From NCBI RefSeq assembly GCF_003018255.1, contig NZ_CP027440.1: DNA of 64,000 nt. One strand, given 5' to 3'. The notes under the pieces were generated by a model that saw only the letters and a list, made by a program, of their open reading frames with translations, was not told the DNA's origin and did no database searches. Position numbers and translations under genes: made by a program. Origin of the DNA: Escherichia coli (GTDB taxonomy: Bacteria; Pseudomonadota; Gammaproteobacteria; Enterobacterales; Enterobacteriaceae). Shown piece after piece: positions 57,400 to 60,682 of the stretch (its first letter is position 1; the number at the start of each line of letters is the position of its first letter).

Positions 57400-57480
57400 A
57401 TGGCCCCGGAGCGGGTTTGCGCCCCTCACCCTAATCCTCTCCCCAGAGGGGAGAGGGAACTGCCAGTGCGCCTTACAGGC
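57400..57480. repeat. GC-rich hairpin-containing intergenic repeat between glnH and glnP
   Basis: gcccctcaccctaatcctctccccagaggggagagggaactgcc with stem cctctcccc/ggggagagg; family (boxC- or REP-related) not resolved by eye. Confidence 0.5.
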
Positions 57481-57489
57481 GTAGCGTTA

Positions 57490-58251
<762 letters not shown>

Positions 58252-58572: not shown

Positions 58573-58600
58573 CAAAACGGCCTCCTGTCAGGAAGCCGCC
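58573..58600 (-). terminator. rho-independent terminator after dps
   Basis: Minus strand ggcggcttcctgacaggaggccg followed by ttttgtttt. Confidence 0.6.
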
Positions 58601-58639
58601 TTTATCGTGTACTAAAGTTCTGCACCATCAGCGATGGAT

Positions 58640-59317
<678 letters not shown>

Positions 59318-59404
59318 TTATTTGCTCGCCAGGAATTTTCGGAATAAATATGCTTTTGCATAATTCGATATATAAAGACGGTGTAGAGGAAAAGTAGCGA
59401 TAAA

Positions 59405-59434
59405 TTCTGCATGGTTATGCATAACCATGCAGAA
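59405..59434. repeat. perfect 30-bp palindrome; likely rhtA terminator in the far-upstream dps region
   Basis: ttctgcatggttatgcataaccatgcagaa lies 9 bp downstream of the rhtA stop and is followed on the minus strand by tttatcgctactttt. Confidence 0.6.
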
Positions 59435-59442
59435 ATGTAAAT

Positions 59443-60330
59443 TTAATTAATGTCTAATTCTTTTATTTTGCTCTCTTTGCGTACTGTCAGCGTAGAACCC
59501 ATTGAAGCGGCGATAATTGCGCCGAGCGCCAGCAGCTGTATGGGTGTCAGTGTTTCTCCGAGGAAAATCATCCCGGAAACGGCAGCCAGTGCCGGTTCCA
59601 TGCTCATCAGCGTACCAAATGTCCGCGTTGGCAAACGGGTGAGGGCAATCATTTCCAGCGAATAAGGCAGAGCGGTCGAGAGAATAGCGACCGCCAGACC
59701 CAATGGAATAACCGACCAGTGCCAGAGTGCTTCACCAGCCTGAAGCGCTCCAATTGGCACGAAAATTAACGCTGCAATCAACGAACCAATTGCCACCGTC
59801 GCAGGGCCATGTTCCGCTCCTGCGCGTTGCCCACTTAAAATGTAAATAGCCCAACAAGCCCCTGCTCCCAGTGCCAGCGCACAGCCGGTTAAATCGACAT
59901 GGGAAACGTCTTGCCCCAGCGGTAGCAGGAACCACAGACCAAGAGCCGCCAGAACAACCCAGACGAAATCTACCGGGCGACGAGAAGAGAACAGCGCCAC
60001 CGCCAGTGGTCCGGTGAACTCCAGCGCCACCGCAATACCCAGCGGTACCGTCTGAATAGAAAGATAAAAAAGATAATTCATCCCCCCCAGCGAAACGCCG
60101 TAAAACAACAGCGGTAACCGCTGCTCTTTGGCAAAGCGCAGTCGCCATGGCTTAAAGAACGCGATGAGGATCAGCGTTCCTAATGCCAGACGCAGCGCAG
60201 TGACACCCGGTGCGCCCACCAGAGGAAAAAGTGACTTAGCTAACGAGGCTCCACCCTGAATAGACGCCATGGCAACGAGCAATATGACTATTGGTAACCA
60301 GACCGGCATTTTACGTAATGAACCAGGCAT
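59443..60330 (-). CDS. rhtA: threonine/homoserine exporter (DMT superfamily)
   Basis: ORF trimmed to MPGSLRKMPVWLPIVILLVAMASIQ (295 aa), 10-TM profile. Confidence 0.93.
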   Translation of the reverse strand: MPGSLRKMPVWLPIVILLVAMASIQGGASLAKSLFPLVGAPGVTALRLALGTLILIAFFKPWRLRFAKEQRLPLLFYGVSLGGMNYLFYLSIQTVPLGIAVALEFTGPLAVALFSSRRPVDFVWVVLAALGLWFLLPLGQDVSHVDLTGCALALGAGACWAIYILSGQRAGAEHGPATVAIGSLIAALIFVPIGALQAGEALWHWSVIPLGLAVAILSTALPYSLEMIALTRLPTRTFGTLMSMEPALAAVSGMIFLGETLTPIQLLALGAIIAASMGSTLTVRKESKIKELDIN

Positions 60331-60682
60331 CCTTTCTCCCACAAATATCTAAACCTAAGTAAAGCGTGGAGTGTACTGGATATACCCAATGCTGGTTGAG
60401 CATTTGTTGAAAAAATTTTCCCCCGTTTTGACTAAAATGCGCCAGGATTGATGGAATCATTAGTCTGGTGATTAGGAATAATCTGGATGAATGACAGGGA
60501 AAACATGCGTAATACTTATGCAGTTCTCTGAAAAAGTGATTTAAATTTAGATGGATAGCGGTGTATGGAAACGTTCTGTTACATGAAATGGCCCGTTAGA
60601 CATCACAAATCGCGAAGAGTTTCCCATTAATTTTTGATATATTTAAAACTTAGGACTTATTTGAATCACATTTGAGGTGGTT

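What the first reader, a model, noticed from the sequence alone, without database searches (positions are those of the whole stretch)
59405..59434. Perfect 30-bp palindrome between rhtA and dps
ttctgcatggttatgcataaccatgcagaa is perfectly symmetric, unusually long for a simple terminator stem, and lies about 260 bp upstream of the dps start. It may both terminate rhtA and act as a protein-binding site in the dps control region.
Basis: seen in the sequence. Interest (0 to 1): 0.3.

Follow-up and report, generated by a model that had tools for sequence, protein, structure and literature searches.

The report
Stem-loop ending the rhtA message
The perfect 30-bp palindrome is real and strongly conserved. 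It is most likely the ordinary RNA hairpin at the 3' end of the rhtA messenger, not a special dps control site, and it has already been described in print as an inverted repeat upstream of dps.

Summary
Window 59405-59434 is a perfect 15+15 palindrome. It lies 8 nt after the rhtA stop codon and 262-291 nt upstream of the dps ATG. It is single-copy and present in 5420 of 5426 complete E. coli genomes.

Across about 75 Enterobacteriaceae species, a 9-17 bp hairpin sits 5-15 nt after the rhtA stop. Its sequence and its loop (3-9 nt) vary. Fourteen of 15 stem pairs show compensatory double changes. G·U mismatches outnumber A·C mismatches 21 to 2 on the rhtA-sense strand. The conserved object is therefore an RNA stem-loop in the rhtA transcript. 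The palindrome is perfect only because the Escherichia tetraloop UGCA happens to be self-complementary.

A U-tract is lacking in almost all genera and is weak in E. coli (UUUAU/UUUCU). The downstream spacer is C-rich and G-poor. This matches the known class of protective 3' stem-loops of weakly or Rho-terminated mRNAs.

Published full-length RNA data list rhtA as monocistronic. No mapped rhtA 3' end was found in the data I could reach.

The repeat is already published (Antipov 2017, Melekhov 2015) as a weak in vitro Dps contact site. Variable spacing and covariation argue against a sequence-specific operator.

Verdict: ordinary, low interest.

The parts
59405..59434 (-). The perfect 30-bp palindrome, which is an RNA hairpin of the rhtA transcript. 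The 5' arm is 59434-59422, the UGCA loop is 59421-59418, and the 3' arm is 59417-59405. The stem is 13 bp.
59443..60330 (-). rhtA coding sequence (threonine/homoserine exporter). Its TAA stop at 59443-59445 lies 8 nt upstream of the hairpin.
59397..59404 (-). Short, weak U-run directly 3' of the stem. It reads UUUAUCGC here, UUUCUCGC in K-12, and UUUUCUCG in the strains sequenced with 59405 T->A.
59235..59404 (-). Poorly conserved, AT-rich spacer that is C-rich and G-poor on the sense strand. It is a candidate Rho-loading (rut) and diffuse termination zone. This role is inferred.
59144..59234 (-). Conserved dps core promoter, OxyR-type repeat and 5' UTR block. The -10 TATACT is at 59195-59190 and the TSS is at about 59182, mapped from MG1655 848950. 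This is a separate conservation island and is not part of the hairpin.
58640..59143 (-). dps coding sequence, the downstream gene.

Best explanation
The palindrome is the DNA image of a stem-loop at the 3' end of the rhtA mRNA.

Shown here:
- A stable hairpin (13 bp in E. coli, 9-17 bp elsewhere) begins 5-15 nt after the rhtA stop codon throughout Enterobacteriaceae.
- It is preserved by compensatory substitutions.
- It tolerates G·U, but hardly any A·C, on the rhtA-sense strand.

Inferred:
- Transcription from the rhtA promoter runs through the hairpin. It stops partly at the weak U-run just after the stem in E. coli, and otherwise diffusely in the C-rich, G-poor spacer downstream, probably with the help of Rho.
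- 3'-to-5' exonucleases (PNPase, RNase II) then trim back to the hairpin.
- The hairpin therefore fixes and protects the mature rhtA 3' end, and rhtA transcription is kept from running into the dps promoter.

The perfection of the palindrome is incidental. The Escherichia tetraloop UGCA happens to be self-complementary, which has a 1 in 16 chance for a 4-nt loop. Other genera have non-palindromic loops.
For: Position:
- The hairpin is tied to the rhtA stop (gap 5-15 nt, median 8, sd 2.3). Its distance to the dps ATG ranges from 198 to 357 nt, and the intergenic length from 245 to 408 nt.
- RNAfold places a hairpin there in nearly all of 77 loci.

Covariation (43-sequence alignment A2):
- 92.9% of cells are paired, against 79.5% in shuffles and 31-45% when the 3' partner is slid.
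- 14 of 15 pairs change on both sides, and 0 of 500 shuffles reach any of the measures. Results are similar on the model-based alignment.
- Examples: CUGCAUG/CAUGCAG in Escherichia and Enterobacter, CAGCAUG/CAUGCUG in Kosakonia and Phytobacter, UUACCGUGG/CCACGGUAA in Buttiauxella, and C-G to U-A in E. albertii.

Strand and molecule:
- G·U versus A·C is 21:2 in the core stem, and 26:6 with a strand-neutral hairpin finder.
- The sense fold is more stable than the antisense fold in 39 versus 19 species.

Not a classical terminator outside E. coli:
- There are on average 2.5 T in the 8 nt after the stem, and at least 5 T in only 4 of 72 loci.
- The terminator-type score is above 0 in 5 of 73 loci (median -14), against 66 of 81 (median +22) for the dps terminators scored the same way.
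- The E. coli hairpin scores +12.8, or +22.7 with the A30->U variant, against +40 for the dps terminator.

Downstream composition:
- In the 60 nt after the stem, C averages 14.4 and G averages 6.9. C exceeds G in 68 of 72 loci.

Match to a published class:
- Dar & Sorek 2018 (PMC6061677) describe stable stem-loops without U-tract or upstream A-tract, followed by C>G sequence, which protect Rho-dependent mRNAs from PNPase and RNase II.

Transcripts:
- SMRT-Cappable-seq (PMC6131387, supplementary files 4 and 6) lists b0813 from TSS 850130 as a single-gene operon in both conditions. It lists dps separately from TSS 848950.
Against: - No 3' end is mapped at the hairpin in the Term-seq tables I could read. 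Adams 2021 lists nothing between 848852(-) and 850273(+). This may reflect low rhtA expression, but it leaves the key step unshown.
- Rho dependence is untested. The C>G bias extends over the whole spacer up to about +210, so it is not specific to the region just after the stem.
- Covariation and strand tests use related species and are not phylogenetically corrected.
- The arm sequence UUCUGCAUGG is more conserved across Escherichia, Citrobacter, Salmonella, Enterobacter and Lelliottia than structure alone requires.
- Pseudocitrobacter and Trabulsiella do without the hairpin.
Confidence: 0.7

Rival explanations
1. It is a self-sufficient Rho-independent (intrinsic) terminator of rhtA. The hairpin plus the following U-run release RNA polymerase directly.
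For: In E. coli the stem is strong (-18.7 kcal/mol) and is followed by UUUAU/UUUCU. The terminator-type score is positive (+12.8). It rises to +22.7 in the E. coli genomes carrying A30->U, which extends the run to UUUUCUC. rhtA is monocistronic in full-length RNA data.
Against: - The simple terminator scan does not call it, because only 4 of 8 tail bases are T.
- There is no upstream A-tract.
- The score is well below that of the neighbouring dps terminator (+40).
- In other genera the conserved hairpin is followed by AAUAU, AGG or CGC, with at least 5 of 8 T in only 4 of 72 loci. What selection preserves is therefore not a hairpin-plus-U-tract unit.
- No Term-seq 3' end is listed there.
- The scoring formula was recalled from memory and used with modern energies, so only the relative values are meaningful.
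Confidence: 0.2
2. It is a DNA-level structural element (palindrome or cruciform) in the distal dps regulatory region. It recruits Dps or another nucleoid protein and affects promoter topology and dps autoregulation, as proposed by Antipov et al. 2017.
For: [quoted passage not shown]
- Dps ChIP-seq covers the dps locus, and a dps-promoter reporter drops in a dps mutant (PMC5553809; PMC4433220).
- My mapping puts the palindrome 222-251 bp upstream of the TSS, which is consistent.
- In Escherichia the palindrome is spacer-free with an AT-rich centre, which favours extrusion.
Against: - The protection was weak and was seen at 5-10-fold molar excess of a protein that binds DNA non-specifically. 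The distal fragment bound Dps less well than the promoter fragment.
- The repeat itself was never mutated.
- A DNA duplex or cruciform function predicts no preference between G·T and A·C, yet G·U wins 21:2 and 26:6 on the rhtA-sense strand.
- The element tracks the rhtA stop, not the dps promoter.
- About 150 nt of unconserved sequence separate it from the conserved dps block.
- Most genera have 4-9-nt non-palindromic centres.
Confidence: 0.08
3. It is the operator of a sequence-specific dimeric transcription factor controlling dps or rhtA.
For: It has perfect dyad symmetry. The arms TTCTGCATGG/CCATGCAGAA are conserved in five genera. TGCA recurs every 10 bp inside it.
Against: - The distance between the conserved arms varies from 0 to 9 nt across genera, which is incompatible with a fixed dimer footprint.
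- The arms are replaced by unrelated complementary sequences in Buttiauxella, Cedecea, Raoultella and Klebsiella.
- G·U asymmetry points to RNA.
- The known dps regulator sites lie in the proximal conserved block. That OxyR, IHF, Fis, H-NS and MntR act there is from my own knowledge and from the statements quoted.
- No paper in the searchable library contains the sequence.
Confidence: 0.02

Closest known systems
Protective 3' stem-loops of Rho-dependent E. coli transcripts (Dar & Sorek 2018, NAR; hypothesis of Peters et al.)
   Same: A stable stem-loop shortly after the stop codon, with no U-rich tail in most species, no upstream A-tract, and C>G sequence downstream. Its energy and size are like those of terminator hairpins.
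   Different: Neither the steady-state 3' end nor bicyclomycin or exonuclease sensitivity has been shown for rhtA. In E. coli itself a short U-run follows, so this may be one of the intermediate hybrid cases that the paper discusses.
Canonical intrinsic terminator, e.g. the dps terminator in this window (58574-58602, minus strand)
   Same: A hairpin directly downstream of a coding sequence. In E. coli proper it is followed by three to four U.
   Different: The dps terminator has a G+C-rich stem and a UUUUGUUUUG tail, a mapped Term-seq 3' end (848340), and a score of +40. The rhtA hairpin is A+U-rich at its base, has a weak tail, scores +12.8, and has no mapped end.
REP/BIME extragenic palindromes acting as mRNA 3' stabilisers
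   Same: An intergenic palindromic sequence that can block 3' exonucleases.
   Different: REPs are multi-copy families. This sequence is single-copy in 5420 genomes. The covariance model finds it only at this locus in 550 kb. It has no match in Rfam.
The '30 bp inverted repeat' in the distal dps regulatory region (Melekhov 2015; Antipov 2017)
   Same: It is the same sequence. The published position 216-281 bp upstream of Pdps contains it.
   Different: Those papers treat it as a DNA structural target of Dps. They do not consider that it sits 8 nt after the rhtA stop or that it is conserved as an RNA hairpin.

Membership tests
Intrinsic (Rho-independent) terminator | Energetically stable stem-loop in the nascent RNA | tested here: met
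   13-bp stem with a 4-nt loop, -18.7 kcal/mol, z = -5.6. Only 5 of the 13 pairs are G-C.
Intrinsic (Rho-independent) terminator | U-rich tract of about 7-8 nt immediately 3' of the stem | tested here: inconclusive
   In E. coli the tail is UUUAUCGC or UUUCUCGC (4 of 8 T, not called). It is UUUUCUCG in the sequenced E. coli variants with A30->U. Across genera the mean is 2.5 of 8 T, with at least 5 T in 4 of 72 loci. The score is above 0 in 5 of 73 loci, against 66 of 81 for dps terminators.
Intrinsic (Rho-independent) terminator | RNA 3' end mapped at the U-tract, independent of Rho | not testable with these tools
   No entry near 849160-849200 in the Adams 2021 supplementary tables. The other data sets are not held.
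Protective 3' stem-loop of Rho-terminated mRNA | Stable stem-loop just downstream of the coding sequence, not followed by a U-rich sequence and not preceded by an A-tract | tested here: met
   The 5' flank is U-rich (UAUU...) and the 3' flank is AAUA...
Protective 3' stem-loop of Rho-terminated mRNA | C-over-G enrichment (rut-like) downstream of the stem | tested here: met
   C averages 14.4 and G 6.9 per 60 nt, with C>G in 68 of 72 loci. However, the bias spans the whole spacer, so it is weakly diagnostic.
Protective 3' stem-loop of Rho-terminated mRNA | Read-through on Rho inhibition, and longer 3' tails in pnp/rnb mutants | not testable with these tools
   This needs bicyclomycin and exonuclease-mutant RNA-seq. 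The Dar & Sorek and Peters tables are not held.
   14 of 15 pairs have double changes, 92.9% of cells are paired, and 0 of 500 shuffles match. G·U versus A·C is 21:2 and 26:6.
REP/BIME or other dispersed palindromic repeat | Many copies per genome sharing a consensus | tested here: not met
   One site per genome in 5420 genomes. Only chance-level near-matches in the window. The covariance model hits only this locus.
Dimeric transcription-factor operator | Half-site sequence and spacing conserved among orthologous promoters | tested here: not met
   The centre varies from 0 to 9 nt, and the half-sites are replaced by unrelated complementary arms in several genera.
Any curated Rfam family | Match at or above the gathering score | tested here: not met
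   The best hit is a spurious mir-19 match, 18.3 bits against a gathering score of 50, E = 4.4.

The most novel reading that the evidence does not exclude
In Escherichia the rhtA 3' hairpin has been co-opted as a second-layer DNA element. A spacer-free 30-34-bp palindrome extrudes or bends under supercoiling and recruits Dps or another nucleoid protein. It would then couple the topology of the distal dps upstream region, and so dps autoregulation, to an element that also ends the rhtA message. Alternatively, the unusually conserved arm sequence UUCUGCAUGG could be read by an RNA-binding protein.
Probability: 0.07. Interest if true: 0.45.

Novelty: already known. Interest (0 to 1): 0.12.

Why it matters
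It matters little beyond annotation.\n\n- It gives rhtA, an exporter widely used in threonine and 5-aminolevulinate production strains, a defined 3' element that engineers should keep or replace deliberately.\n- It cautions that the '30-bp inverted repeat' used as a model Dps target in the dps regulatory region is primarily the neighbouring gene's 3' RNA hairpin.\n- It is also a clean, small example of how covariation and G·U asymmetry separate an RNA hairpin from a DNA palindrome.

Tried and rejected
- Chance: rejected.\n- Dispersed repeat or mobile element: rejected, because the sequence is single-copy.\n- Rfam family: none.\n- Literature search for the sequence itself: no paper holds it.\n- 'dps + rhtA' and 'rhtA + terminator' searches gave nothing relevant. 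The RpoD-SELEX paper concerns the rhtA-ompX spacer, not this one.\n- Experimental 3'-end evidence:\n - Adams 2021 tables have no entry at the site.\n - Supplements of Dar & Sorek 2018, Choe 2022, the 2025 3'-seq comparison, Grünberger 2022 and Conway 2014 are not held.\n - Dar 2018 PLoS Genet has no rhtA entry.\n - Ju 2019 and Peters 2012 are not held.\n- ProQ-binding angle: papers were found but not pursued for lack of look-ups.\n- Antisense-strand terminator: rejected by hand. The + strand tail AUGUAAAUUUAAUUA gives a clearly negative hand-computed terminator score with the recalled formula.\n- 36-aa ORF starting inside the palindrome (59318-59428, minus strand): its downstream sequence is not conserved even among Escherichia species, so it was treated as spurious.\n- Fixed-spacing operator (NsrR-like or GntR-like motifs recalled from memory): no convincing match, and the idea is contradicted by the variable spacing.

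Full report
**1. The observation**

Window 59405-59434 reads TTCTGCATGGTTATGCATAACCATGCAGAA. It equals its own reverse complement, and the perfect arms end exactly at 15+15. It is by far the longest perfect inverted repeat in the 64-kb window. The next spacer-free palindrome is 7+7, and the other perfect hairpin repeats have 11-nt arms. About 6e-5 such palindromes would be expected by chance.

The window is E. coli, but not K-12; it is 100% identical to strain JNE23-011 over the spacer. All three genes lie on the minus strand:
- glnH, 57490-58236
- dps, 58640-59143
- rhtA, 59443-60330

The palindrome begins 8 nt after the rhtA TAA codon and lies 262-291 nt upstream of the dps ATG.

**2. Conservation inside E. 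coli**

The palindrome is unchanged in K-12, although the 300-nt spacer differs at 9 positions. A BLAST search with the 30-mer finds it in 5420 of 5426 complete genomes. There is one site per genome; the two hits per genome are the two strands of the same site.

About 6 of 30 evenly sampled genomes align over only 29 nt. In the two of these that I sequenced, the change is sense-strand A30->U. That shortens the palindrome to 28 bp and lengthens the following U-run to UUUUCUC. One strain has two changes at the stem base, leaving the 26-bp core.

**3. Other species**

A scan of one genome per species with Dps returned 80 loci, and rhtA-dps synteny holds throughout Enterobacteriaceae. Directly after the rhtA stop codon, almost every genus has a hairpin.

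- Escherichia species keep a perfect 30-34-bp palindrome. E. albertii carries a C-G to U-A double change.
- Citrobacter and Salmonella keep the arms but have a 1-nt deletion or other changes in the centre.
- Enterobacter and Lelliottia keep UUCUGCAUGG(C)/(G)CCAUGCAGAA around unrelated 6-8-nt loops.
- Kosakonia and Phytobacter have CAGCAUG/CAUGCUG.
- Raoultella, Buttiauxella, Cedecea and Klebsiella have different complementary arms.

With an uninterrupted-stem criterion, 61 of 77 loci have a stem of at least 9 bp (median 14 bp, loops 3-9 nt). Most of the rest have interrupted stems.

The gap from the stop codon to the stem is 5-15 nt (sd 2.3). The distance from the stem to the dps ATG is 198-357 nt (sd 18.8). 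The element therefore belongs to the rhtA 3' end and not to a fixed position in the dps promoter.

A spacer alignment shows two separate conserved islands. One is the hairpin. The other is the dps core promoter, OxyR-type repeat and 5' UTR. About 150 nt of poorly conserved sequence lie between them. Pseudocitrobacter and Trabulsiella have a 118-133-nt spacer and no hairpin.

**4. Structure, not sequence; RNA, not DNA**

On a 43-species alignment, the 15-pair helix is paired in 92.9% of cells. This compares with 79.5% in column shuffles and 31-45% when the 3' partners are slid by 1-3 columns. Fourteen of the 15 pairs carry changes on both sides, and 0 of 500 shuffles reach any of the measures. 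A covariance-model alignment gives the same picture. These tests are not corrected for phylogeny.

Mismatches in the core stem are G·U on the rhtA-sense strand 21 times and A·C twice. A hairpin finder that treats G·U and A·C alike gives 26 versus 6, which is roughly 14 versus 4 independent events. The sense strand folds better than the antisense strand in 39 versus 19 species (Wilcoxon p = 0.013).

A duplex-DNA or cruciform function would not prefer G·T over A·C. The selected object is therefore an RNA hairpin in the rhtA-sense transcript.

The 'perfect palindrome' follows from a 13-bp stem whose tetraloop UGCA happens to be self-complementary. That has a 1 in 16 chance for a 4-nt loop, and it is a feature of Escherichia only.

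**5. What kind of 3' hairpin**

The simple terminator scan does not call it, because the tail UUUAUCGC has only 4 of 8 T.

I applied a d'Aubenton-Carafa-type score. The formula was recalled from memory and used with modern energies, so only the relative values are meaningful.

| Hairpin | Score |
|---|---|
| E. coli rhtA hairpin | +12.8 |
| E. coli rhtA hairpin, A30->U variant | +22.7 |
| Adjacent dps terminator | +40 |
| rhtA hairpins across genera | above 0 in 5 of 73; median -14 |
| dps-downstream hairpins across genera | above 0 in 66 of 81; median +22 |

Across genera the 8 nt after the stem hold on average 2.5 T, and there is no upstream A-tract. The 60 nt downstream are C-rich and G-poor (C 14.4 versus G 6.9; C>G in 68 of 72 loci). 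This bias continues over the whole spacer.

This anatomy matches the class described by Dar & Sorek 2018. [quoted passage not shown] These stem-loops protect the mRNA from PNPase and RNase II after diffuse termination downstream. The authors also note intermediate cases and easy evolutionary switching through the U content. The E. coli alleles that differ in the U-run look like such intermediates.

**6. Experimental data I could reach**

- SMRT-Cappable-seq lists rhtA (b0813, TSS 850130) as a single-gene operon in both growth conditions. It lists dps (b0812, TSS 848950) separately, with no b0813|b0812 unit. Transcription from the rhtA promoter therefore ends before dps.
- The Term-seq tables of Adams et al. 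2021 contain the dps terminator end (848340) and ends inside dps. They contain nothing between 848852(-) and 850273(+). The rhtA 3' end itself is therefore not mapped there, perhaps because rhtA is weakly expressed.
- Other 3'-end data sets were not available.

**7. The protein-binding idea**

The repeat is already in the literature. Antipov et al. [quoted passage not shown] They speculate that losing this interaction alters promoter topology. In MG1655 coordinates the palindrome is 849172-849201, which is 222-251 bp upstream of TSS 848950. This is the same element.

The underlying footprint (Melekhov et al. 2015) showed a few protected bands at 5-fold, and end protection at 10-fold, molar excess of Dps. 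The distal fragment bound less well than the promoter fragment. The repeat was never mutated.

A sequence-specific operator is hard to reconcile with the variable centre, the swapped arms and the G·U asymmetry. A structural DNA role in Escherichia cannot be excluded, but it is not needed to explain the conservation.

**8. Verdict**

The best-supported explanation is that it is the 3'-terminal stem-loop of the rhtA mRNA, with confidence of about 0.7. In E. coli it is a weak or hybrid terminator. Across the family it is probably a protective end structure upstream of Rho-dependent termination.

The element belongs to a well-known kind and has itself been described in print. Novelty and interest are therefore low. 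The steps not shown are the exact RNA 3' end, Rho dependence and exonuclease trimming.

Noticed in passing
window 58574-58602 (minus strand): This is a canonical intrinsic terminator of dps (AAGGCGGCTTCCTGACAGGAGGCCGTTTTGTTTTG). The K-12 equivalent carries a strong Term-seq 3' end at MG1655 848340. It served as the positive control for the terminator score (+40).
   Followed up: yes
window about 57425-57470 (minus strand), between glnH and glnP: A hairpin-forming element, CCCTCTCCCCTCTGGGGAGAGGATTAGGGTGAGGGG, lies in the glnH-glnP spacer. The K-12 version of this sequence appears in the Adams 2021 table as an RNA 3' end. It is probably a repeat-type mRNA stabiliser or attenuator inside the glnHPQ operon.
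   Followed up: no
window 59405 (sense-strand A30 of the hairpin): About 6 of 30 evenly sampled complete E. coli genomes lose the outermost pair. In the two I sequenced (H54, H55) the change is T->A here. The palindrome drops to 28 bp and the post-stem U-run lengthens to UUUUCUC, which looks more like an intrinsic terminator (score +22.7 versus +12.8).
   Followed up: partly
L015, L017 (Pseudocitrobacter); L047, L061, L070 (Trabulsiella), rhtA-dps spacer: The spacer is only 118-133 nt. The hairpin and the whole distal dps upstream region are missing, and the rhtA stop is followed almost directly by the OxyR-type repeat of the dps promoter.
   Followed up: partly
window 59318-59428 (minus strand): A 36-codon ORF (MVMHNHAEF...) starts inside the palindrome. 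The sequence downstream of the hairpin diverges even among Escherichia species, so the ORF is probably spurious.
   Followed up: partly
window 59405-59434: TGCA recurs at exactly 10-bp intervals inside the palindrome (positions 4-7, 14-17 and 24-27). The central copy is lost outside Escherichia and Citrobacter, so this is probably a by-product of the stem sequence.
   Followed up: partly
window about 60565-60630 (plus strand): RefSeq annotates a 21-codon small protein, YliM, just upstream of ompX in matching genomes (L001 2965-3030).
   Followed up: no
window 59401: This strain differs from K-12 in the tail right after the hairpin: sense UUUAUCGC versus UUUCUCGC. This is one of 9 differences in the 300-nt spacer, while the palindrome itself is unchanged.
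   Followed up: yes
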